Below are positions 1-37,515 of a stretch of 64,000 nucleotides of DNA, one piece after another. Every line of letters begins with the position of its first letter. Position 1 is the stretch's first letter. The stretch spans positions 192,001 to 256,000 of IMG/VR virus record IMGVR_UViG_3300045988_173726; one strand, written 5' to 3'. Made by a program: the position numbers and the translations under genes. Under the pieces are notes generated by a model. The model ran no database searches. It saw only the letters and a list, made by a program, of their open reading frames with translations, and was not told the origin of the DNA. Source of the stretch: a virus.

Positions 1-555
1 TTCACTGCAATTTCATTTGTGGCAGTAATTGCTTGCATAGTTGTAACGTTGGACTGGTATCAGAGTTTTAGCCTATTAAGCAGTGCCGAGAAGTCACTGT
101 CATCCGTAGCATCCAATATTACAGTACAGCCAGCACAGGTTTCATTGAGTTTAGCGACAGATTCTTTCGTTTATGATGAGCAGGGAGGCTCGGTAGTCGG
201 GGATTCTTTGATGTCGTTTAATGCAGGGAGTAATGAATTAAATTTTGGTGTGAGTTATCCTATTAATTCGGGGAAGCAGAAGTCTGTCAAGGTTAGTTTA
301 TCTGGTAAGCGGGATGGTGCTAAGTATCTGTTTACTGTTAAGAAAGCACGCATGATTAAGTCGGTTGAGTTTCAAGTGTCTGGATTAGATAATTCGCTTA
401 ACTGGTATTTGGACGGCAAGCGTGTAATTCCTTCCGATGACGGAATACTTTCGACATCCTATGAGTTTCGGCAGGGGAAATGGTATATCATTTTGATGGG
501 ATACAATAGTGTAGATGGCTCGGTGAGTGACGGAGTTATCATAAAGATTGTGTAG
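1..555 (+). CDS. single-pass membrane protein, member M1 of the 'TM + SGL beta-module' paralog family (5' end may lie upstream of the window)
   Basis: The frame is open from nt 1. The N-terminus is hydrophobic (FTAISFVAVIACIVVTL). The ectodomain aligns by eye with ORF 3808-4410 (NITVQPAQVSLSLATDSFVYDEQGGSVVGDSL vs SIVIQPTTVSLRLPKDSFVYGEHGGSVIGDSL; FQVSGLDNSLNWYLDGKR vs FRVSGLDTSLVWYADGKR). Confidence 0.6.
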   Translation, partial: FTAISFVAVIACIVVTLDWYQSFSLLSSAEKSLSSVASNITVQPAQVSLSLATDSFVYDEQGGSVVGDSLMSFNAGSNELNFGVSYPINSGKQKSVKVSLSGKRDGAKYLFTVKKARMIKSVEFQVSGLDNSLNWYLDGKRVIPSDDGILSTSYEFRQGKWYIILMGYNSVDGSVSDGVIIKIV

Positions 556-3807: not shown

Positions 3808-4410
3808 ATGGATTTCGAAGCTAACGCAGGTAAGGATAACGAACAGAGTTCGAGTATTAATAACTTGATATTTTATTCTGGAATAGTTCTTGTAGTAAGT
3901 GCGTTCATATTGCCTGTATTTGTGCATATGATTGCCAGTGACCGAGCTAATAGAATGACTAAATTGGTATCGTCAACGCAGTCTAGCATTGTAATACAGC
4001 CAACAACTGTGTCTCTACGATTACCTAAAGACTCGTTTGTGTACGGAGAGCATGGTGGGTCAGTAATAGGGGATTCTCTAATAGCGTTTAACGATGGGAG
4101 TAACGATTTAAGTTTTCATGTGAGCTACCCGACTTTGGATGTACAAAAGTCGTTTACGGTTCATTTATTTGGCGCGTATGACCATATTACATATAAGCTT
4201 ACAACGGAAATGAACGGTTATGATTATGCTGTTGTTTCAGCTCGGTTTCGAGTTTCTGGCTTAGACACTTCATTGGTCTGGTATGCGGATGGAAAGCGTG
4301 AAGTTAGTAGCGGATTTGCAGAGGCGAGCGACATGGTTTATTTGACTGGATATAGTGGAGTTGATAACTCATTGTGCGGTGGGGCTATAGTAAAATATGC
4401 CTGCAAATGA
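3808..4410 (+). CDS. single-pass membrane protein, family member M2
   Basis: ATG 3808 (MDFEANAG) is the first start downstream of the HsdS stop. TM segment: LIFYSGIVLVVSAFILPVFVHMI. Paralog of ORF 1-555. The upstream part of track ORF 3562-4410 overlaps hsdS out of frame and was discarded. Confidence 0.7.
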   Translation: MDFEANAGKDNEQSSSINNLIFYSGIVLVVSAFILPVFVHMIASDRANRMTKLVSSTQSSIVIQPTTVSLRLPKDSFVYGEHGGSVIGDSLIAFNDGSNDLSFHVSYPTLDVQKSFTVHLFGAYDHITYKLTTEMNGYDYAVVSARFRVSGLDTSLVWYADGKREVSSGFAEASDMVYLTGYSGVDNSLCGGAIVKYACK

Positions 4411-21643: not shown

Positions 21644-21695
21644 GGGGAAAAGCGGGCGTGGGGTTTAACAGGTACGGTAGGGGCTGGCAGTCTTA

Positions 21696-21735
21696 ATTTT
21701 GATTTTGAGCTATTTTTGCCCGAGAGTTCTTTAGG
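21696..21735 (+). repeat. copy A of a ~40-bp intergenic motif (ATTTYGATTYTG-N7-TTTYYGCCCGAKAGTTYTTTAG)
   Basis: attttgattttgagctatttttgcccgagagttctttaggg aligns with 43121-43159 and 43371-43410. Confidence 0.8.
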
Positions 21736-22137: not shown

Positions 22138-22176
22138 AGGCTTAAATAGTATAACTAGTTGGAAACGGAGGGCAAA

Positions 22177-23145
22177 ATGGCAGGGAACAGTAATCTTCAC
22201 AGAGCAAAAGAGGCGAAGAACGATGAGTTCTACACACAGCTTTCGGATGTAGAGAATGAGCTTGTGCATTATCGGGAGCATTTTAGGGGTAAGACAGTGT
22301 TTTGTAACTGTGATGACCCGACATGGAGTGCGTTCTGGAAGTATTTTCATTTGAATTTCGGCTTTCTTGGTCTTACGCGTCTTGTTTCTACGCATTACGA
22401 CAAAGAGCAAAGCACATATATGATGGAGTATCTTGGCGGGGATGATAACGATGTGAGTGTCGGGACGAAAACGCCGCTCAAGGGAAACGGAGATTTTAGA
22501 AACGAAGAGTGTTTGGAATTGCTTCGGCAGAGTGACATCGTGGTGACGAACCCGCCGTTTTCGCTGTTTAGAGAGTTTATCGGGACGCTGATGGAGTATG
22601 AGAAGAAGTTTATTGTGTGGGGAAACAATAACGCTGTAACATATAAGGAATTCTTTCCGTTGATTCGTGAAGATAAGTTATGGCTCGGGTATTTGTCGAA
22701 TAAGACCTGCATATTCGGGGTAGGTGAAGGCTATAGGTACGATGAGAAGATAACGGCACAGATGAATGACGGAATGAAGTACGGGAAAGTTCCTGCAATT
22801 TCGACTTTTACCAACCTCGACATCAAGAAGCGTCACGAAAATCTTATTCTCTATAAGCATTATAGTCCCGAGGGATTTCCGAAGTATGATAACTACGATG
22901 CAATCAACGTAGACAAGGTATCGGATATACCGATGGATTATGACGGAGTAATGGGAGTTCCTATTACATTTCTCGACAAGTATAATCCAGAGCAGTTTGT
23001 GCTTATCGGAACAGATTTTCAAGTAAAAGACGGCGAGTTAGCTGACATCAGAAATAAGAGTTGGGGCGGTAAGTTTGACAGGGGCTATATTAACGGTAAG
23101 CGTCTCTATTCGAGGGTGTTTATTCGTAAAACATTACATAGCTAA
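22177..23145 (+). CDS. adenine-specific DNA methyltransferase, EcoRI-methylase-like family (paralog 1 of 3)
   Basis: GGAGGG RBS. N-terminal RAKEAKNDEFYTQLSDVENEL...GKTVFCNCDDP and catalytic VVTNPPFSLFREFI. Paralogous to 43594-44601 and 44588-45463. Confidence 0.8.
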   Translation: MAGNSNLHRAKEAKNDEFYTQLSDVENELVHYREHFRGKTVFCNCDDPTWSAFWKYFHLNFGFLGLTRLVSTHYDKEQSTYMMEYLGGDDNDVSVGTKTPLKGNGDFRNEECLELLRQSDIVVTNPPFSLFREFIGTLMEYEKKFIVWGNNNAVTYKEFFPLIREDKLWLGYLSNKTCIFGVGEGYRYDEKITAQMNDGMKYGKVPAISTFTNLDIKKRHENLILYKHYSPEGFPKYDNYDAINVDKVSDIPMDYDGVMGVPITFLDKYNPEQFVLIGTDFQVKDGELADIRNKSWGGKFDRGYINGKRLYSRVFIRKTLHS

Positions 23146-23409
23146 AGCAAGTAAGCTTGGCGCTAGTTAATGAATGTGTCATTTTATGCGTGCAATAGAT
23201 ATGGGACAGAAATCGAGACGATAGACTTGTTTTATCCAAAGTCTATGGCGATTTGTGGATGTATGAACTCTCCAAAAGACACCTTAGTGAGTGGTGTAAA
23301 GAAGTATGCGAGGCTTCTGATTAGGTTTCGGCAGAAGTAGGCTTAGTGAAAGCAAGAGCGAGAGCTGATTGACTAGCTTATTTGCGAGTTAGCAGAAAGG
23401 GGGGTTTGT

Positions 23410-23724
23410 TTGGGCAACGATAATAAATCTTCGGAGGTAGTAGGGATTATCTCTGTGATAGCTTTTGTAAGCGTGCTTGTTCTGTTGTCATGGTGGATTT
23501 CGTCTACTGCATTGGAGAGGTTTCAAGCGTCAAAGGGTAGTGATTCAGACACTACACGGGTATACGCTGTGTTTAACCGTGCAACTGTAAATTATTGGAC
23601 GAAAGCCCGTTTAGACGCACTGAAAGTAAAGTACGGAACAGAGATAGCAGAGCCTTTGACAGAGGATATGTCAATGGAAAGCGTATGTATTCGCGTATTC
23701 TCATTAGGTATCATAACGATTTAA
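23410..23724 (+). CDS. truncated membrane-family paralog M3 (TM + juxtamembrane segment only)
   Basis: TTG start after AAAGGGGGG. It has a TM segment plus DTTRVYAVFNRATVNYWTKARLDALKVKYGTEIAEP, matching M4 DTRVSAVFERATVVYWSKSRLDGLKVKYEAEIAEP. It ends before the C-terminal module. It may be a gene remnant. Confidence 0.45.
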   Translation: MGNDNKSSEVVGIISVIAFVSVLVLLSWWISSTALERFQASKGSDSDTTRVYAVFNRATVNYWTKARLDALKVKYGTEIAEPLTEDMSMESVCIRVFSLGIITI

Positions 23725-23739
23725 GCGAGGGAAACAGTT

Positions 23740-24600
23740 TTGCAGTACAATAGCGACAATGTAATGAGGCGGCTATTACAGCTGTGTGCAACGATTTTTC
23801 TCATGGTGATTACGGTTTCCGTTATCGTGTCGGTAGTTTCTGAACAGAAGGCATTTGAGGAAAACAGTAAAACAGAGGATACTCGGGTAAGCGCTGTTTT
23901 TGAGCGAGCAACAGTTGTATATTGGAGTAAGAGTCGTTTAGACGGGTTGAAGGTAAAGTACGAGGCAGAGATAGCCGAGCCGAGGATAGATTATTGGACT
24001 CGGGAGTATTTGGATACTTCATATGTTAGGTATCAGCAGGGGTTTATAGATATTCCTGCTAGGACAGCTTATTTGCCAAAGTATCGTCCGACAAGAAGGA
24101 ATCGCTTGAAGGTAGAGACTCTAGTAAGGTCTACGAGGTATGTGTATAGCTGGGTAGTTCCGCTTACGCTTTATAGGAACGAAATTAATTCCGAGGTAAA
24201 CCCAGACAGTGAGGCGGTATGTGATATTATTTTCCAGTCCGGAGAAACAGAGGAGTATACCTTCAAGGCAAAGTATTCAGTGAGTGAGAGAGCCTTTCAT
24301 ATAAGTACTTATGTGTCGGATGGGTGGTCTGACAGGCAAGAGGGAATTTTTGATGTTCATTTTAAGTTGAAAAACTTAGTTTCTGGAAGAAAGTATCTTT
24401 TAGGTAGCCAAGAGTTTATTGCAGATGACAGCGGGGAGCGGGATTGCAGTATAGACATACCAAATTACGGTCTGCGTTCATATTTGTTTAATGAAGATTC
24501 TTCTTATCGTGTGCTGTTGCATAGTATGGACGATAGCGGGGTGCTTAAAGAGGAGTTAGCGTTTGATGTGTCGTTAGGAGATATAGACTGGAAGAGATGA
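23740..24600 (+). CDS. single-pass membrane protein, family member M4
   Basis: TM LQLCATIFLMVITVSVIVSVV. C-terminal signature VHFKLKNLVSGRKYLLGSQEFIADDSGERDCSIDIPNYG. TTG 23740 or ATG 23764. Confidence 0.7.
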   Translation: MQYNSDNVMRRLLQLCATIFLMVITVSVIVSVVSEQKAFEENSKTEDTRVSAVFERATVVYWSKSRLDGLKVKYEAEIAEPRIDYWTREYLDTSYVRYQQGFIDIPARTAYLPKYRPTRRNRLKVETLVRSTRYVYSWVVPLTLYRNEINSEVNPDSEAVCDIIFQSGETEEYTFKAKYSVSERAFHISTYVSDGWSDRQEGIFDVHFKLKNLVSGRKYLLGSQEFIADDSGERDCSIDIPNYGLRSYLFNEDSSYRVLLHSMDDSGVLKEELAFDVSLGDIDWKR

Positions 24601-25523
24601 GCAGAGAACGGACGGATGCAGACGATTTTAGCTTGGCTATGGTTGGTGCTATTGTGGTTGCGGTGGTGCTAATTTTTGTAATAGCTGGGCTTGTGACGCA
24701 TTGGGAGAAGAAAGAGGCTTCTGAAAACTTAAAAGGCGACCCGTCAAGGGTAAACGCAGTGGTGGAGTCCGCACGGGTAACATATTGGTCGAAAGATAGG
24801 CTTGACGGGTTAAAGATACAGTTCGGGGGCGAAGTTTATACGCCAAAGGTTACACCTGTGGCTCGGAATTATAGCGTAGTTCACCGAGGACATGGGAACT
24901 CTGGTGTTGGAGTTTATGAGAAGTCGGATGGGAAGCTTGGGATTGGCTTTGTATCTGGAACAGGTTACGGATGGTATATTGGTTCGGATGGAGAGACGGG
25001 GACAGGCTGGGTTGTGAGTGGTAGTAATACGCCGACAACGCGCGAGAGCGTAACTGCTGTTAGGTATCTGTACAGCTTTAATGTCCCTGTAGGTGTGTAT
25101 GCGAATGACGGTGGCAGTCTTGTAAATCCAGACTGCGGTGCAGAGTGCAGTGTAATTTTGCCTAATGGTGGGATAGAGAGGTTTTTATTTTCTGCGAAGT
25201 ATGACTTAGTGAATCGAGGCTACGACATATTGTCGGTATCAAAGACAGGGCTAGGAAGTGCCTATGACATTGAGTGTGGAGTATATAGGGTAAATCTTCG
25301 ACTTAATAACCTTACGGTCGGAAAGACTTATATTCTTGGCGGGTATCGGTTTACGGCAGACAGTAAGGAGCGTGAGTGTGTGATAGATATTCCGAATTAC
25401 GGAGTTTATTACAGGGAGCTTGGCGACCAAGCTGTGTATCGGGTTGACTTATCGAGTATAGACGAGCAGGGGAATGCGGAGCTTGAGCTACGGTTTAATG
25501 TATATTGCGGTCGGGTAGATTAA
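24597..25523 (+). CDS. single-pass membrane protein, family member M5
   Basis: ATGA overlap with M4. TM AMVGAIVVAVVLIFVIAGLV. Signature VNLRLNNLTVGKTYILGGYRFTADSKERECVIDIPNYG. Confidence 0.75.
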   Translation: MSRERTDADDFSLAMVGAIVVAVVLIFVIAGLVTHWEKKEASENLKGDPSRVNAVVESARVTYWSKDRLDGLKIQFGGEVYTPKVTPVARNYSVVHRGHGNSGVGVYEKSDGKLGIGFVSGTGYGWYIGSDGETGTGWVVSGSNTPTTRESVTAVRYLYSFNVPVGVYANDGGSLVNPDCGAECSVILPNGGIERFLFSAKYDLVNRGYDILSVSKTGLGSAYDIECGVYRVNLRLNNLTVGKTYILGGYRFTADSKERECVIDIPNYGVYYRELGDQAVYRVDLSSIDEQGNAELELRFNVYCGRVD

Positions 25524-25551
25524 GCGGCGCAAGCCCTTTGTACAAATCTTA

Positions 25552-25580
25552 TTGACAGGTTTCTATTAGCCTGTTATGAT
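25552..25580 (+). promoter_or_regulatory. sigma-70/sigma-A-type promoter
   Basis: TTGACA - 17 bp - TATGAT, about 45 nt upstream of ATG 25626. Confidence 0.6.
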
Positions 25581-25625
25581 TATCTCATAGCAAAGCATTT
25601 AAGGCTTGGGTGGGGGAGATAGAAG

Positions 25626-26375
25626 ATGTATAACAGAGGGCTAATGGACGATATGATTGTTGTGGGGACTGGGGTTTTTCTGGCTCTGCTTTTATGTGGG
25701 GGTTTAATTGTCCATGAGGAGATAAAGGATAGAACAGGGGATGTTAGCCCGATAGAGGTTGAGTTCTTGTCGGTGTCGCCTTGCCTTTACGATAAGACAC
25801 CGATAGGTGGAACACTGCTTTCCGCAAGCGGAGAGAATAGCGGGTTAAAGACGGGTGACCCGATTTCGTATCAGTCGGGGCGTGCAGGGTATGTTTATCA
25901 GCAGAACAGTGGGCTTGGTGTTTATACATATTCCTCAAACGATATGTTGTTTTCGTGCTACGCAGAGGTTGTTCCGACACAGGACGCGAAGGGGAACTGG
26001 AATGCAGGATTTAATTTGTTGTCCCCGAGCGGAGATACAGTAAATGTAGGCTTTAAGGCAAGTTCAAATCGCAGAAAGACAGAATACAGCTTGATTAGCG
26101 GGGGTAACACTTCGCTCGACACAGGTATTTATGGTTTCATGCTAAAGTTTAGTGGTTTAACGGTGGGAGATAGATATGTGTTTGCGGGGCAGGAGTTGCA
26201 TGTTTCCGAGGACGGAAGTGCGATAGCGAGTGTTCTTACGCCTTGCGGGGGAGTCGGGTTTACTCGGGAAGGCACGCTTTCACAGCATGGCTATCATTAT
26301 CTAAATCTGGTTAAGATTTTGGATAGTGGCACGGTAGAGAAAGAGATTGAGTTTAGCATCGAGATGGCACATTAA
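25626..26375 (+). CDS. single-pass membrane protein, family member M6
   Basis: GGGGGAG RBS. TM IVVGTGVFLALLLCGGLIV. Signature FMLKFSGLTVGDRYVFAGQELHVSEDGSAIASVLTPCGG. Confidence 0.75.
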   Translation: MYNRGLMDDMIVVGTGVFLALLLCGGLIVHEEIKDRTGDVSPIEVEFLSVSPCLYDKTPIGGTLLSASGENSGLKTGDPISYQSGRAGYVYQQNSGLGVYTYSSNDMLFSCYAEVVPTQDAKGNWNAGFNLLSPSGDTVNVGFKASSNRRKTEYSLISGGNTSLDTGIYGFMLKFSGLTVGDRYVFAGQELHVSEDGSAIASVLTPCGGVGFTREGTLSQHGYHYLNLVKILDSGTVEKEIEFSIEMAH

Positions 26376-26388
26376 GGGGGAGTGGGAG

Positions 26389-26583
26389 ATGGTTTTCTCG
26401 GTAATGCTCTGTATTGCGAGTCTGTGTATGCTCGTTAATACGCTGAAAGAGAAGGAAGTTCCTGCCGAGCGGTTTGTCGGGTTTGGGATTCTGTTTATTT
26501 TGTGGGGTGTTACCGTCTTGTTTCCGAGCTTCGGAGAAGCCCCTGCCGAGCTGGTGAGGTCAATGTTTAATGGTGGAAGTTAG
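26389..26583 (+). CDS. small two-TM membrane peptide (64 aa)
   Basis: GGGGGAG RBS before ATG 26389 (MVFSVMLCIASLCMLV...GFGILFILWGVTVLF). Confidence 0.5.
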   Translation: MVFSVMLCIASLCMLVNTLKEKEVPAERFVGFGILFILWGVTVLFPSFGEAPAELVRSMFNGGS

Positions 26584-26779
26584 ACGGTTTATTCAGCGCA
26601 TCAGAAGCGATATTTGCCGTTACAGGATTCGCCTTTATTTGTATGATACTGCGAAAATTCGCAGTATCATCGTGGTAACTATTTGTGTGGTTATAGCTTG
26701 TCTTTATATATACAGCGTTGGACAGGCGCGTTTAGAAGAAATTCGGTATATAAGGGGACACACTGTAGTTAGGTTTTAA
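26570..26779 (+). CDS. possible small membrane protein (69 aa)
   Basis: ORF with one TM (IIVVTICVVIACLYIY), overlapping the upstream gene by 14 nt. There is no clear RBS and it contains a 28-nt palindrome, so coding status is uncertain. Confidence 0.3.
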   Translation: MVEVRRFIQRIRSDICRYRIRLYLYDTAKIRSIIVVTICVVIACLYIYSVGQARLEEIRYIRGHTVVRF

Positions 26780-26832
26780 GTATCGTAGCGTTCCGCGATT
26801 ATCCGATAAAGCTAAAGAGGGGGTATATAGGG

Positions 26833-27510
26833 TTGTTTGAGAAATTGTATGGGCGATACAAAAATGTATTTGATGGCATATTAGTAGCCTTTGCGCTAGT
26901 TGTATTTGTTTGCTTTGTCTTATTGTTTTGTGGGTGGGTCAGCCCGTCTTGCAAGCGGCATAGTCCCATCACAAGTTCCGTGAAAGTAAGCTTCGAGTCA
27001 GTAACGCTTTGTTATTATTCATACTCTCCTGTTAGCTGTAGTTGGATGTACGGAGACAATATAGCGAGTCCAGAGCCGACAGTTGGGGCAGTCGGAATAA
27101 TGTCTAAAAGCGAATTGTATTCCTATCCGTCTTTCCCTTTAACTGTAACAGACAGCAATAGCGGTTCTAAGATGGCTGGTTGCGCTCTTCTTGTGAACAA
27201 TAATCCCGCAGATTGCAGTGTTTATCTGGACAGTGACAATACGCTTTCTGCCGAAGCTAAATTCGAGTGTTCGAAGGAACAGCTAGGTATATTGGGCGGT
27301 CGTGTTAGGTTTAGTGGCTTGACTTACGGGAAGAACTATGTGTTTGACGGAAAGAGATTGGATGTGCAAGAGGACGGCACAGCGGTCGGAGAGTTTGTGT
27401 CTATGGACGTTTACGGAGGGGTTTATTATATCCCGCTATTGGAAGTTGATGCAGGAGAGCAGATTAGTCTATTGGAGATAGGAGTCAAGAGACTCGTTCC
27501 TTGGGATTAA
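26833..27510 (+). CDS. single-pass membrane protein, family member M7
   Basis: TTG start after AGAGGGGG. TM ILVAFALVVFVCFVLLFCGWV. Signature RVRFSGLTYGKNYVFDGKRLDVQEDGTAVGEFVSMDVYG. Confidence 0.7.
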   Translation: MFEKLYGRYKNVFDGILVAFALVVFVCFVLLFCGWVSPSCKRHSPITSSVKVSFESVTLCYYSYSPVSCSWMYGDNIASPEPTVGAVGIMSKSELYSYPSFPLTVTDSNSGSKMAGCALLVNNNPADCSVYLDSDNTLSAEAKFECSKEQLGILGGRVRFSGLTYGKNYVFDGKRLDVQEDGTAVGEFVSMDVYGGVYYIPLLEVDAGEQISLLEIGVKRLVPWD

Positions 27511-27566
27511 CGGCGGTATGCGTTAAGCGTGCAGAAGTTAGATAGTGTGAGTTTGGAGGTGTAATT

Positions 27567-27674
27567 GTGAAGTTTAATCGAACGGCAGTCAGTATGGTTG
27601 TAGTTATCTGTATAGGACTTTTAATATTGAGTGTGCTTTCATTTGTTGAGGCAGGGGGTTTAGGTAGAATATGA
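27567..27674 (+). CDS. possible 35-aa TM micro-protein
   Basis: Below the track cut-off. GGAGGT RBS, GTG 27567, product VKFNRTAVSMVVVICIGLLILSVLSFVEAGGLGRI. Its TGA overlaps ATG 27671 as ATGA. Confidence 0.4.
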   Translation: MKFNRTAVSMVVVICIGLLILSVLSFVEAGGLGRI

Positions 27675-28516
27675 TTGTAACAGCGGAGACTTTTATTCCT
27701 GCCCTTTTGGGGATTATGCTTGGCTTGATGGTGATATTTATTGCCAGCCTTTGGGTAATCAAGCGTTATGTGTTGTCTGCCTCTCTTGCTATATTAGCCG
27801 CATGTGCGGTATTTACTGTATTTATAGGCTCTATCATATGGTTTTGCAACGATGCTCCAGTAGATAAGCCAGATTTTATACCTAGGGCAAGTAACGAAGT
27901 AATTTCTGGCAGTAACACTAGTATTAACTTCGAATCCTTAACAGTTACAGGCTATTCTGTTGGTTCTCCAGTTCCCTGTAGTTACTCTTCTAACGGGAGT
28001 GTAGGCGGTTCAGCTTCGATTCAGAGTGGTAGTGTTAATGGAGATATGAATACTAGCTTTAATTGGTATGCCTATCCTATGACCGTGCCTGTTGATAGCC
28101 AAAATTCTGGGAGCTTAGTGTCTTTTGGCATTCTGTTTGATAACTTGTCAGCTAATTGCAGTGTAAATCTTTCTTCTCCTGCTACAAACGGAGACAACAA
28201 GTATATTTTGAACGCGAAAGCCGACTTTAATAACGGGGTGTCAGAGTCGTTTGGAATTGCTGGTGGTAAGGTGCGGTTTAGCGGGTTGCAGTACGGAAAG
28301 AGTTATGCTTTTGGTGATAAGAGCCTTACAGTGGCAGAGGATGGAACGGCAGAGGTAGAGTTTACTGTTCCAGACTACGGGTATGTGGACAGTATGTTTC
28401 CAGATTTGTATTCGGTTAGGCTTGTAAAAGCCGAGGGAAATTCCTTGGAGACAGAGTTAATTTTGTATGTGAAGCGTCCAATAAAGAGGGCTGTGGATGT
28501 GCGAGCGGGGAAGTGA
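27671..28516 (+). CDS. membrane protein, family member M8 (two N-terminal hydrophobic segments)
   Basis: Signature KVRFSGLQYGKSYAFGDKSLTVAEDGTAEVEFTVPDYG. N-terminal TM segments. Confidence 0.75.
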   Translation: MIVTAETFIPALLGIMLGLMVIFIASLWVIKRYVLSASLAILAACAVFTVFIGSIIWFCNDAPVDKPDFIPRASNEVISGSNTSINFESLTVTGYSVGSPVPCSYSSNGSVGGSASIQSGSVNGDMNTSFNWYAYPMTVPVDSQNSGSLVSFGILFDNLSANCSVNLSSPATNGDNKYILNAKADFNNGVSESFGIAGGKVRFSGLQYGKSYAFGDKSLTVAEDGTAEVEFTVPDYGYVDSMFPDLYSVRLVKAEGNSLETELILYVKRPIKRAVDVRAGK

Positions 28517-28738: not shown

Positions 28739-28811
28739 CGGGATGTGGCTCAAGTGGTAGAGCGCTTGCTTTGGGAGCAAGACGTTGCAGGTTCAAGTCC
28801 TGTCATTCCGA
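28739..28811 (+). tRNA. tRNA-Pro (anticodon TGG)
   Basis: Hand-folded cloverleaf: CGGGATG / TG / GCTC-AAGTGGTA-GAGC / G / CTTGC-TTTGGGA-GCAAG / ACGTT / GCAGG-TTCAAGT-CCTGT / CATTCCG / A. No encoded CCA. Confidence 0.85.
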
Positions 28812-28884
28812 TTTACCGTATGGGGATGTACGGTAAGCCACTTTGCCTCCTTACAATGTGGGATTTTCCAGACGGATAGACGGT

Positions 28885-28950
28885 GTGGCGGTAGTGTAGA
28901 GGGAGCATGACGCTAAGGCGTAGGAGCGGGTTCGAGCCTCGCCCGTCACA
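28885..28950 (+). ncRNA. tRNA-like element TL1 (66 nt) lacking an anticodon loop
   Basis: GTGGCGG / CCGTCAC acceptor; D arm GTGT-AGAGGGA-GCAT; canonical T arm GCGGG-TTCGAGC-CTCGC. The anticodon-arm position holds only ACGC-TAAG-GCGT. No 5-bp/7-nt-loop alternative was found by exhaustive hand check. Confidence 0.45.
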
Positions 28951-29026
28951 TTAGCTGACTTCGGTCAGCGAACATTTTCCTCATCTCCAACAAACAGAGC
29001 GGCGAGTGCGTGAATACCATTCGCCT

Positions 29027-29075
29027 CGGATACGCGACATATGGTCGCCGCTGGGTGCAAGTCCTAGGTATCCGA
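29027..29075 (+). ncRNA. tRNA-like mini-element TL2 (49 nt)
   Basis: CGGATAC / GTATCCG acceptor; one hairpin GCGAC-ATATG-GTCGC; T-like arm CTGGG-TGCAAGT-CCTAG. The T loop is non-canonical. Confidence 0.3.
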
Positions 29076-29131
29076 TTTGCTAGAGCATCCGTGAACAGTG
29101 CTTTAGCGGTTAACCAATCAAATTGTCTTGG

Positions 29132-29190
29132 AAGTCAGTAGTTTAGTGGTAAAACGCTTTGAGACGCGGGTTCGAGTCCCGTCTGACTTC
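29132..29190 (+). ncRNA. tRNA-like element TL3 (59 nt): tRNA-Gly-type body without an anticodon arm
   Basis: AAGTCAG / TA / GTTT-AGTGGTA-AAAC / G / CTTTGAGAC / GCGGG-TTCGAGT-CCCGT / CTGACTT / C. Only 9 nt occupy the place of the ~22-nt anticodon arm plus variable loop. Confidence 0.5.
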
Positions 29191-29260
29191 TTCCGTCCCT
29201 CGGAATTTCCCCCGTTGGCTTGAGAAGGCTCACCGACACACAACTCCGAGGAGACGGTTT

Positions 29261-29306
29261 ACGGGCGCGGTAAGGCGCAGTGGGGGTTCAACTTCCCCCG
29301 CCCGTT
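29261..29306 (+). ncRNA. tRNA-like minihelix TL4 (46 nt)
   Basis: Perfect 7-bp acceptor ACGGGCG / CGCCCGT, a 14-nt linker, and a canonical T arm GGGGG-TTCAACT-TCCCC. Confidence 0.4.
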
Positions 29307-29368
29307 CTGTGCGGTCGTTGTCTTGCAAAATACCTGCCAAGTGAGACAGCGCTCCGCACTCCCCCCAA

Positions 29369-29442
29369 GGAAAGGTGGCTCAATAGGTGAGAGCATTCGG
29401 CTCATAACCGAACGGTTGCGGGTTCGAGTCCCGCCCTTTCCA
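29369..29442 (+). tRNA. tRNA with CAT anticodon (elongator Met or, after lysidinylation, Ile2)
   Basis: GGAAAGG / TG / GCTC-AATAGGTGA-GAGC / A / TTCGG-CTCATAA-CCGAA / CGGTT / GCGGG-TTCGAGT-CCCGC / CCTTTCC / A. Initiator hallmarks are absent (G1:C72 pair; no GGG/CCC in the anticodon stem). Confidence 0.85.
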
Positions 29443-29455
29443 CTAGAGTTTTTAG

Positions 29456-29519
29456 ACGACAGTAGTTTACGGGAATGCGCCAAAGGCGCGGAGAGAGGTT
29501 CGATTCCTTTCCTGTCGTA
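29456..29519 (+). ncRNA. tRNA-like element TL5 (64 nt) with a triloop in place of the anticodon loop
   Basis: ACGACAG / CTGTCGT acceptor. The anticodon-arm position is GCGCC-AAA-GGCGC. T arm (G)AGAGG-TTCGATT-CCTTT(C). Confidence 0.4.
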
Positions 29520-29587
29520 TAGCCGTAGTTCCGTGATACTCCATATCTGCTACGGTGAATCCTTTCTGGTACCTGCTGGTGCTTGGT

Positions 29588-29652
29588 TGTGCGGTAGCTT
29601 AACGGCTAGAGCTAGGCGTAGTCCGATGCGGGTTCGACTCCCGCCTGCACAA
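29588..29652 (+). ncRNA. tRNA-like element TL6 (65 nt) lacking an anticodon arm
   Basis: TGTGCGG / CTGCACA acceptor; D arm GCTT-AACGGCTA-GAGC; perfect T arm GCGGG-TTCGACT-CCCGC. Only 15 nt lie between the D and T arms. Confidence 0.45.
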
Positions 29653-29697
29653 TTTGTCCGAAGGTCGGGCAAAAATACTATGGTTTCGATTACTCGG

Positions 29698-29761
29698 TAG
29701 GGCGTTCGTTTAAGCGGAAAGACGGCATATTGCCATGTAGGTTCGACTCCTACGCGCCTAC
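29698..29761 (+). ncRNA. tRNA-like element TL7 (64 nt) with a triloop in place of the anticodon loop
   Basis: Acceptor TAGG(G)CGT / GCGCCTA with one bulge; D arm GTTT-AAGCGGAA-AGAC. The anticodon-arm position is GGCA-TAT-TGCC. T arm GTAGG-TTCGACT-CCTAC. Confidence 0.3.
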
Positions 29762-29826
29762 TCGTAACTGTAGAGTTTGGTTGGGCTTTGCAGTTACGGG
29801 ATACAAGCCCAGAGTTTGTATCCTAC

Positions 29827-29900
29827 GCTTTGTTAGTTCAGTTGGGAGAACGCACGGCTGTAAAGCGTGGTCGCCATTGGTTCGAGTCCAATACAGAGCG
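29827..29900 (+). tRNA. tRNA-Tyr (anticodon GTA), short-variable-loop form
   Basis: GCTTTGT / TA / GTTC-AGTTGGGA-GAAC / G / CACGG-CTGTAAA-GCGTG / GTCGCC / ATTGG-TTCGAGT-CCAAT / ACAGAGC / G. There is a G:G mismatch at the loop-closing pair and no long variable arm. Confidence 0.65.
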
Positions 29901-29929
29901 TTAGACCATATGGTCTAAAGAGTTTATCT

Positions 29930-30008
29930 GCTGTCGTGGTGGAATAGGTATACACGGCGGACTTAAAATCCGCTGGCTTCGAGCCATGTTCAAATCCGAC
30001 CGTCAGCA
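29930..30008 (+). pseudogene. tRNA-Leu (TAA)-like gene with an unpaired T stem (possible pseudogene or aberrant tRNA)
   Basis: Class-II layout: GCTGTCG / TG / GTG-GAATAGGTATA-CAC / G / GCGGA-CTTAAAA-TCCGC / variable hairpin TGGCT-TCG-AGCCA. The 5 nt before TTCAAAT (CCATG) cannot pair with CCGAC. The acceptor has one T:T mismatch. Confidence 0.45.
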
Positions 30009-30170
30009 TTGCTTGTGCCATAGATGCCCTAAGTATTGTTCCTTGGAGCAGGATGCAGGCATCACAAGTAGAACTTCCGTCTAAGCGAGGCGAATGCTCC
30101 AGTCCTTGCGATGACGGGGAGAGCCGAAGTTCAAATCATTAGAGTAGGCATAGTTATAGGCTTTCAGTGT

Positions 30171-30258
30171 GGAGAGGTACTCAAGTGGTTTAAGAGAACG
30201 GTCTTGAAAACCGTGAGGTCGTGAAAACGGCGCGAGGGTTCAAATCCCTCCTTCTCCG
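30171..30258 (+). tRNA. tRNA-Ser (anticodon TGA)
   Basis: GGAGAGG / CTTCTCC acceptor; ACGGT-CTTGAAA-ACCGT anticodon arm; long variable arm; T arm GAGGG-TTCAAAT-CCCTC. Confidence 0.85.
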
Positions 30259-30398
30259 TTAGAGGTGTTTTGCTGGTTCACCTCTAAACCTCCTTCTTTT
30301 TGGAAACAGCCGTTCGCTTATTTCGGGCAAGATAAGCGGAAAAGTAAGTACTGTGGCTAAGGACGCAGTGTTTACCAGAGGGATGGCGACCCTCATAT

Positions 30399-30486
30399 GG
30401 AGAGATACTCAAGTTGGTGAAGAGGACAGGTTGCTAACCTGTTAGGTCGCGAAAGTGGCGCAAGGGTTCAAGCCCCTTTCTCTCCG
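30399..30486 (+). tRNA. tRNA-Ser (anticodon GCT)
   Basis: GGAGAGA / TCTCTCC acceptor; ACAGG-TTGCTAA-CCTGT anticodon arm; long variable arm; T arm AAGGG-TTCAAGC-CCCTT. Confidence 0.85.
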
Positions 30487-30543
30487 TTCTGCCGTTTATT
30501 TCCCTAAGTGTGTGCTTTGGGAGCGAGCGGCAGTATTAAACAG

Positions 30544-30593
30544 TCCTATATAGATGTATTAAACTCAAGATAGTTTAGCATCTCCCTGTAGGA
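30544..30593 (+). repeat. copy 1 of a ~50-nt conserved hairpin element (R1)
   Basis: tcctatatagatgtattaaactcaagatagtttagcatctccctgtagga. Outer stem TCCTATA/TGTAGGA, inner stem AGATG/CATCT. Aligns with 30989-31037. Confidence 0.8.
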
Positions 30594-30825: not shown

Positions 30826-30832
30826 TTGTTTT

Positions 30833-35131: not shown

Positions 35132-35944
35132 ATGAGACTTGGCAGGGGTCTAATCGTAAAGGTTGCGGTCGGTGTAGTGGCTCTTGGGCTTGTCGGGTTT
35201 TGGGCGAGTTCAATCATTCGTGACAAGGCAGAGCGGGAGTATGAGAGGCGAGAGACAGTTGCAAAGGCGGCATATGACGGGAGCGGAATAAAGGCAGACA
35301 TAACTTCCGTTAAGGTCGCATTTGCGGTGCGGAAAGAGGGAGTTTATTCAGCTTTCTCTGGGGATTCGTTTCTCGGTTTATCAGTGGACAAGTGGGATAG
35401 AAGCTATGTCAGTAACTACACAAGTAGTAGTACGGATAAAGACGGAAACAATTCCTATCATAGCCACTCACAGCTAGTGAAGCAGATACGGTATCTTTAT
35501 AGCACATCTATTGCGCTTAATAACTCTTTAGAGTCAGAATTAGACAAAGAGGCAGGGTTTAAGGTTACAAACAGTAAGGGAAAGAGCTTTTCTGTAAAGG
35601 TAGCCGCAAAGTATGGCTACTCAAGAAATAGCTATTGCATTACGGCGAAGGCTTCAAACGGCAGAGACTTAGGCGTAGCCGAGGTAACGGTTCGACTTAG
35701 CGGTTTAGTTCCGAATAAGAATTACGCTATGGCGGGAGTCCCGTTTACTGCGGGGTCGGATGGAACGGCAGAAGTTTCGTTTAACACAGTAGACAGAGGC
35801 TTTGAGAATCCAGACACTTTTGGTCGGGTTACGAAGTATAGTCTAATGAGCCTAGACAGTAAGGGGAACGCAAAGACAGAGATGACGATTATAATTCCAG
35901 AGGCGCATATCAAGGGATTTATTTGGAATTTCCCGCGCATATAA
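35132..35944 (+). CDS. single-pass membrane protein, family member M9
   Basis: TM VAVGVVALGLVGFWASSII. Signature VTVRLSGLVPNKNYAMAGVPFTAGSDGTAEVSFNTVDRG. Confidence 0.75.
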   Translation: MRLGRGLIVKVAVGVVALGLVGFWASSIIRDKAEREYERRETVAKAAYDGSGIKADITSVKVAFAVRKEGVYSAFSGDSFLGLSVDKWDRSYVSNYTSSSTDKDGNNSYHSHSQLVKQIRYLYSTSIALNNSLESELDKEAGFKVTNSKGKSFSVKVAAKYGYSRNSYCITAKASNGRDLGVAEVTVRLSGLVPNKNYAMAGVPFTAGSDGTAEVSFNTVDRGFENPDTFGRVTKYSLMSLDSKGNAKTEMTIIIPEAHIKGFIWNFPRI

Positions 35945-35955: not shown

Positions 35956-36762
35956 ATGAGTTTACTAGATTACTCGGGGCTTTTACAGAGAGCTGGCGAG
36001 ACGAAAGGTATAAGCAAGAGCGAGTCAAGCGTAGGCACGCATAAGGGTCTTACCGAAGAAGAGAAAGCCGAGATATTCGCGCGAGTAGACAGGGAGTTTC
36101 GAGGTCGGGAGTGCAGACGGGTTCAGTTAATCGGTTTAGCGGCTATGGTGCTTTCGGTTGTTCTCGCGATAGGCGGGATACGGTATCTAAACTCGCATAG
36201 TGTAGCTATCGGGGCGCGGTTTATGGGAGTTACGGTAAGTCGTGTGGTGGATACAGCTTCTACTGGGGAGACAGGGAACGATGACATAGCGCTTCTTCCG
36301 AGTAACTCGCTTTCTGACGGTAGGGTAGTAGAGAGCTATCGGTTAAGCGGGATACTGCATGAGATAGACGAAAACAATGCAGTTAAGAATAACGGCGACC
36401 GTTTTCTAAAGGAGTCGTTTAGCGTTGGCGGGGCATTACGGCAGATAGACTTAGCTGTAGCCTATGACGGTGGTTCTGCGACTTATACCTTAAAGAAAGC
36501 CAAGTTGTCTGGGGAGTTTGGTGTATCTGATTTAGGCATTTCGGAGATTGAGCTGTCTCTCGGCGGTCTAAGTACGGATAGCAAGTATCTGTTAAACGAT
36601 AGTCCTGTAGATGTTTTGTCAGACGGAACGGCTACGGCAGTATTAAAGCTAGCTAACTACGGGTTAAGTAGCGGGCAGAAGTTTACTTTGTATCGAGTAG
36701 ACGGTACGAACAAGGTGCGGACGCTACGGTTTATCATTCCCGCAATCGGGAAAAGGGGGTAA
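35956..36762 (+). CDS. single-pass membrane protein, family member M10
   Basis: GGGGGG RBS before ATG 35956. TM LIGLAAMVLSVVLAIGGI. Signature IELSLGGLSTDSKYLLNDSPVDVLSDGTATAVLKLANYG. Confidence 0.7.
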   Translation: MSLLDYSGLLQRAGETKGISKSESSVGTHKGLTEEEKAEIFARVDREFRGRECRRVQLIGLAAMVLSVVLAIGGIRYLNSHSVAIGARFMGVTVSRVVDTASTGETGNDDIALLPSNSLSDGRVVESYRLSGILHEIDENNAVKNNGDRFLKESFSVGGALRQIDLAVAYDGGSATYTLKKAKLSGEFGVSDLGISEIELSLGGLSTDSKYLLNDSPVDVLSDGTATAVLKLANYGLSSGQKFTLYRVDGTNKVRTLRFIIPAIGKRG

Positions 36763-36765: not shown

Positions 36766-37515
36766 GTGAGCGGTTTGTTATCCGTTTTGGGAGTAATCGG
36801 TAAATTAGGGATTCTTCTGATTATTTTGATTCTTCTAGCAGTACTGTCTTATCTGATTTTGAATAAGAGTTTCCCGTGGTTTAGAAACTTTAATGTGAAC
36901 GCATTTAAGCCAAGTGAGCGCAGAGAGCGGTCTAGCGAGGAAGCATATTTAGCCGCTTTGGAGAGCGGTGAGGTAGTAGCGCCGAAGGTGACTGTGAAAG
37001 AAATTTCGTTGGCTACAAGAACAAGAGGTTTCGCTAGGATTTTTCAGATTACAAACAGTGGTTTGAAGGAATTGAAGGAAACAACGCATTGTTGCGAGCT
37101 GGGAGGTCTGTATTCGGCGTGGTGGGATTCTGATAGTGTGAGTCTATCCGATAGCCCCTTTACTGGAAGCGAGAAGTATCGGTTTTTAGGCGTTTTGAGT
37201 AATGGAAATCGCGTTCAGTTTCACTTACATGAGCGGTACCAAGACAACGGGAAGTTATATGAAATTTCTTCATCTGTGTGTCTTGGCGCACGCAAAGTAG
37301 TATTTACAATATCAAATCTAACGCCTAATGCTACTTATCTTCTTGACGAGGTAACACATACGGCGGATGAGAGCGGTTGTATCACTCAATCCTTCCGGCA
37401 TAAAGATAGCCACGGTTGGCTCTTTGATGGTGTGTATCATCTTCGCAGATTGGATAGCTACGATTTTACAGATATTATTGACATAAAGCTTTCGTTATGG
37501 AGACCAAACGAATAA
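36766..37515 (+). CDS. single-pass membrane protein, family member M11
   Basis: GTG start. TM LSVLGVIGKLGILLIILILLAVLSYLIL. Signature VVFTISNLTPNATYLLDEVTHTADESGCITQSF. Confidence 0.65.
   Translation: MSGLLSVLGVIGKLGILLIILILLAVLSYLILNKSFPWFRNFNVNAFKPSERRERSSEEAYLAALESGEVVAPKVTVKEISLATRTRGFARIFQITNSGLKELKETTHCCELGGLYSAWWDSDSVSLSDSPFTGSEKYRFLGVLSNGNRVQFHLHERYQDNGKLYEISSSVCLGARKVVFTISNLTPNATYLLDEVTHTADESGCITQSFRHKDSHGWLFDGVYHLRRLDSYDFTDIIDIKLSLWRPNE

What the first reader, a model, noticed from the sequence alone, without database searches (positions are those of the whole stretch)
23410..28516. Tandem array of a diversifying single-pass membrane-protein family (M3-M8), part of an 11-member family in this window
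Six consecutive genes, plus M1, M2 and M9-M11 elsewhere, share one architecture: a short N-terminus, one TM helix, a variable ectodomain of about 150-250 aa, and a conserved C-terminal signature of the form h-x-h-x-h-[SN]-[GN]-L-x-x-[GN]-x-x-Y-x-h-x(4-6)-h-x-h-x-x-D-G-[TS]-A-x-h-x-h-x(3-5)-Y-G.

Examples:
- RVRFSGLTYGKNYVFDGKRLDVQEDGTAVGEFVSMDVYG
- KVRFSGLQYGKSYAFGDKSLTVAEDGTAEVEFTVPDYG
- VNLRLNNLTVGKTYILGGYRFTADSKERECVIDIPNYG

The signature reads like the last strands of a beta-sandwich (FN3 or carboxypeptidase-regulatory-like). M3-M5 also share a juxtamembrane block, D-x-x-RV-x-AV-x-x-A-x-V-x-YW-[ST]-K-x-RLD-x-LK.

M3 is a truncated copy of M4 that retains only the TM and that block. Small TM micro-ORFs (26389-26583, 26570-26779, 27567-27674) are interspersed.

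I do not recognise the family. A phage spending more than 8 kb on paralogous host-membrane-inserted proteins suggests surface remodelling, superinfection exclusion, or receptor or defence-sensor masking, with diversification by gene duplication.
Basis: partly seen in the sequence, partly recalled or inferred. Interest (0 to 1): 0.8.

Follow-up and report, generated by a model that had tools for sequence, protein, structure and literature searches.

The report
Membrane-anchored Ig/FN3-like protein family, jumbo phage
A roughly 270-kb uncultivated phage from the human mouth carries eleven copies of a previously undescribed family of membrane-anchored, beta-sandwich proteins, whose gene arrays are reshuffled between related phages; their function is untested, and blocking rival phages at the cell membrane is my leading guess.

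Summary
Nine ORFs (M3-M11) are linked by BLASTP (E down to 8e-50) and by a family HMM. M1 and M2 join by profile-profile comparison (94% probability).

All members have an N-terminal membrane anchor followed by an all-beta C-terminal part. That part carries the signature sGLxxGxxY...DG(T/S)A...YG.

No Pfam, PHROGs, NCBIfam or PADLOC family matches. AlphaFold and Foldseek give only generic Ig/FN3-like resemblance. A search of 1.84 billion representative proteins finds about 25 same-architecture clusters. All those checked lie on 200-275 kb human-associated phage contigs (one sample is saliva).

In related genomes the flanking genes are 88-98% identical to the window. The M3-M8 genes are only 42-87% identical, with copies gained, lost, truncated and fused.

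dN/dS is 0.2-0.35 and dS is also raised. This points to old alleles exchanged by recombination under purifying selection, not to positive selection. The conserved part is the C-terminal module. The variable part is the anchor and the membrane-proximal region.

No enzyme-like invariant residues are present. I read these proteins as non-enzymatic binding modules on the outer face of the infected cell's membrane, most likely acting in superinfection exclusion. That function is inferred, not shown.

The parts
1..555 (+). M1: family member cut by the window edge (open reading frame from base 1; TM helix visible, then the beta module with VSGLDNSLNWY...DDG)
   Evidence: 76% identical to the full-length 200-aa representative P0128, which has an N-terminal TM; hhalign 94.3%
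3808..4410 (+). M2: family member, about 200 aa. The ORF is listed from 3562, but its 5' part overlaps the type I S-subunit gene. Probable start is the Met at 3808.
   Evidence: 46% identical to M1; TM at residues 103-121 of the long ORF; repeat D5 shows the upstream part belongs to the S gene
23410..23724 (+). M3: 5' remnant (N-terminus, TM, juxtamembrane block) of the gene normally resident at this position
   Evidence: DNA is collinear with L007 up to codon ~78 and then diverges. Intact 288-305 aa versions are in L003/L004/L007.
23595..23753 (+). Fragment homologous to the 3' end of the EcoRI-like methyltransferase gene 22159-23145. It marks the recombination junction between M3 and M4.
   Evidence: (55% over 29 aa, E 8e-7)
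23740..24600 (+). M4: full-length member (TM, juxtamembrane block, beta module)
24597..25523 (+). M5: full-length member with a Gly-rich insert. Its start overlaps the M4 stop (ATGA).
25552..25580 (+). Promoter-like site TTGACA-17-TATGAT with an extended -10 TG, in the M5/M6 gap. This is a consensus match only.
   Evidence: 11 of 12 matches; the overall count in the region does not exceed the shuffled controls
25626..26375 (+). M6: full-length member
26389..26583 (+). Small two-TM protein (64 aa), conserved in relatives
   Evidence: 75-81% aa in L003/4/6/7; called as a 64-aa gene on a public contig
26570..26779 (+). Small one-TM protein (69 aa) with an Arg-rich N-terminus, conserved in relatives
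   Evidence: (85-94% aa in L004/6/7; 49% in L003)
26833..27510 (+). M7: full-length member. Its 3' end and downstream DNA match the 3' end of an extra 'M7b' copy present in relatives.
27567..27674 (+). 35-aa one-TM micro-ORF, only weakly conserved; doubtful as a gene
27671..28516 (+). M8: member with a two-helix membrane hairpin, a disordered linker and a 14-strand all-beta part
   Evidence: (AlphaFold pLDDT 73.6)
35132..35944 (+). M9: full-length member in the second cluster
35956..36762 (+). M10: member with a cytoplasmic N-terminal region of about 55 aa (starting MSLLDYSGLL) before the TM. The ORF is listed from 35923; orthologs are 268 aa.
36766..37515 (+). M11: full-length member

Best explanation
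What it is (shown). This is a paralogous protein family restricted to one clade of phages. Each member has an uncleaved N-terminal membrane anchor: one TM helix, or in M8 a two-helix hairpin. A variable linker and membrane-proximal region follow. The protein ends in a conserved all-beta module whose core resembles an Ig/FN3 sandwich. The motif sGLxxGxxY looks like an FN3 E-F hairpin with a tyrosine corner. The window carries 11 copies: M1, M2, the array M3-M8 next to a tRNA array, and the cluster M9-M11. It comes from a phage of about 240-275 kb known only from human-associated metagenomes. The arrays evolve by duplication, copy loss, recombination between paralogs and swapping of old alleles between phage lineages, under overall purifying selection.

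How it most likely works (inferred). The anchor inserts N-in/C-out, placing the beta module on the outer face of the infected cell's cytoplasmic membrane. The only invariant residues are Gly, Leu and Tyr, which are structural. The module is therefore a binding scaffold, not an enzyme. A set of such scaffolds, varying in copy number and allele between otherwise near-identical phages, fits a repertoire of membrane-level blockers. These would be superinfection-exclusion-type proteins that bind the tail tip or tape-measure protein of incoming phages, or the membrane proteins those phages need for DNA entry. Each paralog would cover a different target.
For: Family and architecture.

Topology (inference):
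- M10 and its 335-aa relative have strongly basic segments immediately before the TM (REFRGRECRR; KVIPKRKRF).
- The two-helix variants of M8 have short basic loops between the helices (KRY; TKQDAK). By the positive-inside rule this puts the C-terminal module outside.

Fold:
- The AlphaFold model of M8 has pLDDT 73.6, with two helices followed by 14 strands.
- The C-terminal 180-305 of M5 is beta at pLDDT 55-89.
- Foldseek top hits are Ig V domains, Fab chains and herpesvirus envelope glycoproteins, and CbhA and fibronectin FN3 modules.
- The family profile hits multi-FN3 giants.

No catalytic signature: the invariant columns are G, L, Y and G only.

No known family.

Restricted distribution: 82 hits among 1.84 billion representatives. 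About 25 have the same architecture, and all those checked are orthologs or paralogs from this phage group.

Hot spot: flanking genes are 88-98% identical to relatives, against 42-87% for M4-M8, with extra or missing copies, fragments and an M5::M8 fusion.

Selection: dN/dS 0.20-0.35 for the array against 0.05-0.16 for most flanking genes, so the genes are functional.

Genomic position: the array sits among replication, methyltransferase and tRNA genes, not in a structural module.

Background: known Sie proteins of Gram-positive phages are membrane-associated and block DNA entry (PMC4737114).
Against: - There is no sequence or structural similarity to any characterised exclusion protein, and PADLOC and PHROGs are silent.
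- Charge distribution around the TM is ambiguous for M5, M7, M9 and M11. For those members the C-out topology rests on homology with M8 and M10.
- Within orthologs the C-terminal module is the most conserved part. A repertoire tracking fast-evolving rival phages might be expected to vary there instead.
- M10 and M11 are no more variable than ordinary genes.
- The host, the phage lifestyle and the timing of expression are all unknown.
- Two Ig-like domains span under 10 nm, so they could not reach the cell surface through a thick Gram-positive wall. This rules out masking of surface receptors but not action at the membrane.
Confidence: 0.4

Rival explanations
1. Host-envelope takeover. The modules bind host membrane or cell-wall machinery (peptidoglycan synthesis, division, secretion, sensor kinases or membrane-bound defence sensors). 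They would reprogramme or blind the infected cell rather than act on other phages.
For: The same architecture and location arguments apply as for the main explanation. Other envelope-directed genes lie nearby: a lipoprotein-like gene at 20351, a transglutaminase-core protein at 39137 and an NlpC/P60-SH3 hydrolase with an N-terminal hydrophobic segment at 41863, and a weak MapZ-like hit at 38160. M10-type members have a conserved cytoplasmic N-terminal peptide MSL[LI]DYxGLL, which could contact a cytoplasmic partner. A conserved C-terminal module fits a conserved host target better than a fast-changing phage target.
Against: A single conserved host target does not explain 11 deeply diverged paralogs (17-36% identity). 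It also does not explain the strong allele and copy-number variation between near-identical phages. No partner is identified.
Confidence: 0.25
2. Virion or assembly proteins. The family would be Ig-like decoration, tail-associated or ejection proteins whose hydrophobic N-terminus serves membrane insertion during infection, or transient anchoring during assembly.
For: Ig-like and FN3-like domains are common on phage virions (general knowledge). The M5 model weakly resembles decoration and neck proteins of phages Bas63 and Sf14 (probability 0.3-0.8, E 0.04-0.1). M7 has a weak hit to a PHROG 'virion structural protein' (E 0.007).
Against: All these hits are non-significant. The genes lie among replication, methyltransferase and tRNA genes, with no capsid, portal, terminase or tail genes recognised in the 64 kb. 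Copy number varies between near-identical genomes and fusions or truncations are tolerated, which is unusual for stoichiometric structural parts.
Confidence: 0.12
3. Lysis-related membrane proteins: holin or antiholin, spanin-like, or lysis-timing sensors such as T4 RI.
For: They have an N-terminal signal-anchor topology. M9-M11 lie 4-5 kb upstream of an NlpC/P60-SH3 hydrolase. Small TM proteins are interspersed in the array.
Against: The part beyond the anchor is 150-250 aa of beta sandwich, not the coiled coil of an i-spanin or the short tail of a holin. No embedded or adjacent o-spanin-type lipoprotein gene is present. Eleven copies are far more than lysis needs. The main array is 13 kb from the hydrolase.
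Confidence: 0.05
4. Largely dispensable paralog debris: a duplication-prone region with no specific function.
For: There is a truncated copy (M3), fragments and split genes occur in relatives, and a fusion protein exists.
Against: dN/dS is 0.1-0.35 for every member that could be compared. Full-length orthologs persist across many contigs, with clusters standing for up to 100 member sequences. The structural core residues are conserved.
Confidence: 0.05

Closest known systems
Phage superinfection-exclusion membrane proteins (lactococcal Sie2009-type, T4 Imm/Sp, HK97 gp15), as summarised in PMC4737114
   Same: They are phage-encoded, anchored in the cytoplasmic membrane by an N-terminal hydrophobic segment, non-enzymatic, accessory and variable between related phages. 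They act at the membrane on DNA entry. This is the working model proposed here.
   Different: No sequence or fold similarity was detected. From memory, the known examples are mostly small (about 100-180 aa) and single-copy. Here there are 11 paralogs of 200-310 aa with an Ig/FN3-like beta module. No phenotype is known.
Clostridioides difficile CwpV (PMC4737114)
   Same: It is an envelope protein of a Clostridia-class organism whose C-terminal repeat region comes in five types. That region blocks phage DNA injection without affecting adsorption. This is precedent for variable, non-enzymatic surface modules acting as exclusion devices.
   Different: CwpV is host-encoded, attached to the cell wall rather than membrane-anchored, and phase-variable. 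It was not retrieved by any search here.
FN3 and Ig-like modules of bacterial surface proteins (C. thermocellum CbhA FN3-like modules 3pe9; the 'putative surface anchored protein' repeat chain 4mkm, which I recall, unchecked, as C. perfringens Cpe0147; Pfam fn3 PF00041)
   Same: They share an all-beta sandwich. The motif GLxxGxxY followed by a strand and a DG turn aligns with the FN3 E-F region. The best structural hits for M5 are FN3 modules. The family profile hits multi-FN3 proteins.
   Different: No member reaches any Pfam fn3-type model even at E<=1, apart from one 0.07 hit to CRLF2-like_D2. hhalign against an FN3 profile gives only 31% probability over 42 columns. Foldseek E-values are all above 0.001. 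The family has extra strands before and after the FN3-like core.
Multigene families of Ig-superfamily membrane glycoproteins in large eukaryotic DNA viruses (herpesvirus envelope glycoproteins seen among BFVD hits)
   Same: This is an analogy only. A large virus carries many paralogous, membrane-anchored Ig-like proteins that vary between strains (one search lists gJ, gC and BARF1 among the weak top hits).
   Different: The matches are non-significant (E >= 0.01, TM-score <= 0.2). The topology is opposite, since those are mostly type I proteins with a C-terminal anchor. There is no evidence of common ancestry.

Membership tests
Fibronectin type III (Pfam PF00041 and related fn3-clan models) | Match to the curated profile at or above the gathering score | tested here: not met
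   hmmscan of 10 members at E<=1 gave no fn3 hit. The only related hit was CRLF2-like_D2 at E 0.073, 13.6 bits against a cut-off of 27.3.
Fibronectin type III (Pfam PF00041 and related fn3-clan models) | Profile-profile similarity to FN3 over the whole domain | tested here: inconclusive
The whole-library hits to multi-FN3 proteins sum many weak repeat matches.
Fibronectin type III (Pfam PF00041 and related fn3-clan models) | Seven-stranded beta-sandwich fold | tested here: inconclusive
   The AlphaFold models are all-beta beyond the anchor. The best Foldseek hits are Ig V or FN3 modules (3pe9 probability 0.93, 5dft TM 0.54, TREM2 probability 0.77), but none has E<=0.001.
Characterised superinfection-exclusion families (Sie2009-type, Imm, Sp, gp15, Ltp, Cor/Llp) | Sequence or profile homology to a known exclusion protein | tested here: not met
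   No PHROGs, Pfam, NCBIfam or PADLOC match. No BFVD or PDB structural match.
Characterised superinfection-exclusion families (Sie2009-type, Imm, Sp, gp15, Ltp, Cor/Llp) | Phage-encoded, membrane-associated, non-enzymatic protein | tested here: met
   TM anchors are present in all members. The contigs are classed as viral in IMG/VR. No invariant polar or catalytic residues are present.
Characterised superinfection-exclusion families (Sie2009-type, Imm, Sp, gp15, Ltp, Cor/Llp) | Blocks infection by other phages after adsorption | not testable with these tools
   This needs the (unknown) host and co-occurring phages.
i-spanin / holin lysis proteins | i-spanin: type II anchor plus an alpha-helical coiled-coil periplasmic domain, with an adjacent or embedded o-spanin lipoprotein gene next to the endolysin. 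Holin: small protein, 1-4 TM helices, short charged C-terminus. | tested here: not met
   The part beyond the anchor is 14 beta strands. Sizes are 200-310 aa. The main array lies 13 kb from the NlpC/P60 hydrolase gene. No lipobox gene is embedded.
Diversity-generating retroelement target proteins | A template/variable repeat pair (about 100-150 nt, differing at adenines) and a nearby reverse transcriptase | tested here: not met
   No direct repeat of 40 nt or more involves any family gene in the 64 kb. No RT domain was found among the 20 large ORFs scanned; not every ORF was scanned.
Virion Ig-like decoration domains (Big_2, I-set, fn3 on structural proteins) | Pfam Ig-like domain appended to a capsid, tail or fibre protein | tested here: not met
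   No Ig-family Pfam hit. The proteins consist only of an anchor plus the beta module, and sit outside any recognisable structural module.

The most novel reading that the evidence does not exclude
The arrays would be a phage-carried, combinatorially reshuffled repertoire of membrane-displayed Ig/FN3-like recognition modules. Different paralogs and alleles would recognise different incoming phages or mobile elements at the membrane. Phage lineages would trade cassettes, so that the repertoire defines which competitors each lineage can exclude. The conserved C-terminal module would bind a common effector or oligomerise. The variable membrane-proximal part would carry specificity.
Probability: 0.15. 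Interest if true: 0.75.

Novelty: new variant of a known kind. Interest (0 to 1): 0.45.

Why it matters
Uncultivated jumbo phages of the human mouth are almost entirely unannotated. Here about 8.6 kb of one genome (13% of the window) goes to a single family with no match in any curated library. The family sits at the most recombination-prone spot of an otherwise conserved region.

If the proteins are exclusion or envelope-takeover devices, they would be a new structural class of phage membrane effector: an Ig/FN3 scaffold on a signal anchor. They would also be a marker locus for tracking competition between phage lineages in oral communities.

If they turn out to be structural or dispensable, the finding reduces to one more lineage-specific paralog family.

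The present value is a clean family definition, an alignment and profile, a topology and fold hypothesis, and a set of natural variants (chimeras, truncations, copy-number variants) that make experiments straightforward once a host is known.

Tried and rejected
- Curated libraries. Pfam, PHROGs, NCBIfam and PADLOC gave nothing significant for any member. A 13-bit match of M5 to the N-terminus of the type VII secretion protein EsaA (E 0.04, cut-off 122 bits) covers the TM helix and was discarded as noise.
- Near-identical phages. Megablast of 20 kb against 50,697 phage records matched only tRNA genes.
- Structure searches. Two AlphaFold models were made: M8 is usable, M5 is poor outside its C-terminus. 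Three Foldseek searches gave no hit at E<=0.001.
- PDB sequence-profile search. Only marginal Ig-repeat and FN3 hits were found.
- Formal FN3 test by hhalign: 31% probability, so FN3 homology is not claimed.
- DGR hypothesis for 'diversification': rejected, because no template/variable repeats are present.
- Positive selection: rejected at the whole-gene level (dN/dS 0.2-0.35). Site-level tests were not done.
- Host identification. Two scans of 185,579 species-representative genomes found no relative of M10. They found only domain-level matches of the ParB-HNH protein in two Clostridia MAGs. The 272-kb NCBI contig is from saliva sample 3 of Yahara et al. 2021 but is not in their jumbo-phage table. 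A 270-kb 'Lachnospiraceae' contig in that table may be related, but I could not check this.
- Distant homologs. A search seeded with four distant representatives returned only six proteins. One is an extra paralog in a closely related genome. One is an M1-type gene in a different phage context. No conserved neighbour gene emerged.
- An alignment-based scan of viral contigs failed for lack of a conserved 7-10 residue stretch.

Full report
**1. The observation**

An independent gene caller finds the same genes, plus the 64-aa and 69-aa small ORFs, on a public contig that carries an identical M5. The quoted signature strings occur verbatim in M7, M8 and M5.

The similarity is far beyond chance. 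All-vs-all BLASTP of the window's 80 + strand ORFs gives M4/M5 8e-50, M7/M8 1e-22, M4/35132 3e-10, M6/M7 1e-8 and M8/35132 1e-7. An HMM built from eight full-length members recovers the truncated M3 at 1.4e-11.

The second cluster is 35132-35944 (M9), 35956-36762 (M10; the ORF is listed from 35923, but orthologs are 268 aa) and 36766-37515 (M11).

M1 and M2 need a stronger test.
- M1 occupies 1-555 and is cut by the window edge; its TM helix is visible in the open frame from base 1.
- M2 is 3808-4410.
- They are 46% identical to each other but only weak HMM hits to the rest (3e-4 and 0.08).
- An alignment of M1/M2-type proteins against the profile of the other eight gives hhalign probability 94.3%, E 9.5e-8, over 78 columns centred on the signature.

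Eleven members is therefore correct. Together they cover about 8.6 kb.

**2. Architecture**

A Kyte-Doolittle scan finds one N-terminal hydrophobic helix in every complete member and two in M8. Only a handful of the window's other ORFs have any such segment. No signal-peptidase or lipobox motif follows the helices, so I read them as uncleaved anchors.

Orientation is inferred, not shown.
- M10 and a 335-aa relative carry strongly basic stretches just before the helix.
- Both two-helix anchor types seen in M8 orthologs have short basic inter-helix loops, KRY and TKQDAK.
- By the positive-inside rule this places the C-terminal part outside the cytoplasm.
- For M5, M7, M9 and M11 the flanking charges alone are ambiguous.

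AlphaFold gave two models.
- M8, with a 69-sequence alignment, has pLDDT 73.6 and pTM 0.62. It shows helices 5-33 and 37-61, a disordered linker at 60-77, and 14 beta strands from 84 to 268.
- M5 modelled poorly (pLDDT 51.8). Its C-terminal 180-305 is again beta, at pLDDT 55-89.

The invariant or near-invariant columns are only Gly, Leu and Tyr. They are structural residues, with no candidate catalytic residues.

**3. What the fold resembles**

No member matches Pfam, PHROGs, NCBIfam or PADLOC.

Foldseek finds no hit at E<=0.001 in the PDB or BFVD. The weak top hits are consistently Ig-like or FN3-like:
- the TREM2 V domain, Fab chains and herpesvirus envelope glycoproteins for M8;
- C. thermocellum CbhA FN3-like modules (probability 0.93) and human fibronectin FN3-11 (TM 0.54) for M5.

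A profile of the ten beta modules was searched against 1.84 billion representative proteins. Besides the family itself it hits giant multi-repeat proteins. Of the four I scanned, three are built largely of fn3 domains, one with 53 of them.

The same profile against PDB sequences gives marginal hits to a 'putative surface anchored protein' repeat chain (4mkm, E 0.002), titin and receptor FN3 domains. All align through sGLxxgkkY...edGt.

A direct hhalign against an FN3 profile gives only 31% probability over 42 columns.

I conclude that the signature looks like an FN3 E-F hairpin with a tyrosine corner and that the fold is an Ig/FN3-type sandwich. Membership of the FN3 family is not established.

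**4. Where the family occurs**

Word-indexed searches return only unnamed proteins without Pfam domains, many on contigs of 200-275 kb. Three sources could be traced.
- IMG/VR holds related viral contigs of 240-260 kb.
- One 272-kb contig (BNJU01000154.1) is from a saliva sample of Yahara et al. 2021.
- Another contig is from an HMP sample.

No relative exists in 50,697 deposited phage genomes. None was found in 185,579 species-representative prokaryotic genomes.

In the exhaustive search only 82 representatives pass E 1e-3. About 25 of these share the architecture, and each one checked is an ortholog or paralog of a window member. One M1-type gene sits in a more distant phage, next to a D5-like primase and helicase genes.

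The window itself carries gyrase, a DnaB-like helicase, a ligase, ParB-HNH, a type I methylase with S subunit, three EcoRI-like methylases, 9-11 tRNAs, a TilS-like gene, a transglutaminase-core protein, an NlpC/P60-SH3 hydrolase and GmrSD-HNH. All genes are on one strand, with GC skew of about 0.3.

The host is unknown. The features point loosely to Clostridia.

**5. How the arrays evolve**

I compared the window with six related loci.
- Flanking genes are 88-98% identical in protein sequence; M4-M8 are 42-87% identical.
- Relatives carry an extra M7-like copy between M7 and M8.
- One relative has an extra M5-like copy.
- Several relatives have fragments or split genes.
- One relative has an extra 335-aa member between M9 and M10.

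The window's M7 3' end and downstream DNA match the 3' end of the extra M7-like copy. This indicates copy loss by recombination between paralogs.

P0030 is a clean fusion of M5 residues 1-128 to M8 from about residue 100 onward.

M3 is collinear with the intact gene of L007 up to about codon 78. It then runs into a 3' fragment of an EcoRI-like methylase gene, followed by M4 with a different N-terminus. A methylase-tail-plus-M4 cassette was therefore recombined into the resident gene.

No DNA repeats link the paralogs and no DGR-like repeats exist.

Nei-Gojobori estimates are as follows.

| Genes | dN | dS | dN/dS |
|---|---|---|---|
| Most flanking genes | 0.02-0.07 | 0.2-0.5 | 0.05-0.16 |
| M4-M7 | 0.13-0.48 | 0.5-1.4 | 0.20-0.35 |
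| M10, M11 | 0.03-0.04 | 0.17-0.24 | 0.16 |

The methylase 22159, g32472 and g38160 are somewhat higher (dN/dS 0.19-0.29), which narrows the contrast a little. The excess divergence in the array is thus largely old or imported variation under somewhat relaxed purifying selection. It is not adaptive diversification.

Within 28 M8 orthologs, variability is highest in the anchor (entropy 1.5), with at least three unrelated anchor types. It is next highest in the linker (1.1) and the membrane-proximal strands (0.65). The FN3-like core and C-terminal hairpin are conserved (0.2-0.3).

**6. Mechanism**

The following are shown:
- membrane anchors in all members;
- an all-beta, non-catalytic module;
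- restriction to one phage group;
- purifying selection;
- a recombination hot spot;
- a position outside any structural module.

The following are inferred:
- C-out topology;
- a binding function at the outer face of the membrane;
- a role in phage-phage competition.

I favour superinfection exclusion at the membrane (confidence 0.4). Known exclusion proteins of Gram-positive phages are membrane-associated and block DNA entry (PMC4737114). Accessory genes that differ between near-identical phages are typical of competition loci.

The main rival (0.25) is binding of host envelope machinery. It fits the conserved C-terminal module, the neighbouring envelope-directed genes and the conserved cytoplasmic peptide of M10-type members.

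Virion or assembly roles (0.12), lysis roles (0.05) and non-function (0.05) are less likely, for the reasons given under the rival explanations.

Masking of cell-surface receptors is unlikely in a thick-walled host, because two Ig-like domains span under 10 nm (general knowledge).

**7. Novelty and score**

The family is new as a sequence family and has no characterised relative. The kind of thing it is has precedent: an accessory, membrane-anchored phage protein with an Ig-like scaffold, amplified into paralog arrays in a jumbo phage. I rate it a new variant of a known kind, with interest 0.45.

The fold guess is weakly supported. The word 'diversifying' needs re-reading as recombinational turnover. 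The functional proposals remain open.

Noticed in passing
47302-63094: A second, larger paralog family. Nine consecutive + strand ORFs of 290-740 aa are linked by BLASTP (E down to 7e-38). One has a BspA-type LRR_5 region. There are no PHROGs hits and no TM segments apart from one internal one.
   Followed up: partly
22159-23145, 43594-44601, 44588-45463; motif copies at 21691-21734, 43116-43159, 43366-43409: Three EcoRI-like adenine methyltransferase paralogs (44-60% identical). A conserved 44-nt motif lies upstream of the methylase loci. It may be a shared regulatory element.
   Followed up: no
20351-21565: A 404-aa protein with an N-terminal hydrophobic segment. Its ortholog in L007 shows a lipobox-like LGITAC. 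It may be a phage lipoprotein lying upstream of the methylase gene and the array. No Pfam or PHROGs hit.
   Followed up: partly
28739-30988 and 31463-32452: A tRNA array with 9 genes by ARAGORN plus two short Rfam-only tRNA matches (28885-28950, 29132-29190). A TilS-like PP-loop gene follows it. The tRNA with anticodon CAT at 29369 could be its substrate.
   Followed up: no
1-64000: GC skew of 0.16-0.38 in every 2-kb window, with every convincing gene on the + strand across all 64 kb. This strand asymmetry is unusually strong and uniform.
   Followed up: no
23170-23340: A small Cys-rich ORF (56 aa) between the methylase gene and M3, conserved at 81-83% aa in three relatives. The surrounding DNA is more conserved than the neighbouring coding sequence.
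   Followed up: partly
26570-26779: The 69-aa one-TM micro-ORF gives pairwise dN/dS of 0.7-1.85 against relatives. Very few sites are involved. It could be relaxed, adaptive, or not translated in this frame.
   Followed up: no
35956-36120; L010:10001-11008: M10-type members begin with a conserved cytoplasmic peptide MSL[LI]DYxGLL. An extra 335-aa paralog inserted between M9 and M10 in a related genome shares it. It may be a docking motif for a cytoplasmic partner.
   Followed up: partly
41863-42933 and 39137-41098: An NlpC/P60 + SH3_3 hydrolase with an N-terminal hydrophobic segment (residues 7-25), preceded by a 653-aa transglutaminase-core protein. Together they may form a cell-wall module downstream of M9-M11.
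   Followed up: no
548-3785: Type I restriction-modification methylase (N6_Mtase) and specificity (Methylase_S) genes with no restriction subunit seen in the window. The S gene has an internal 88-nt repeat (3045-3132 and 3603-3690).
   Followed up: no
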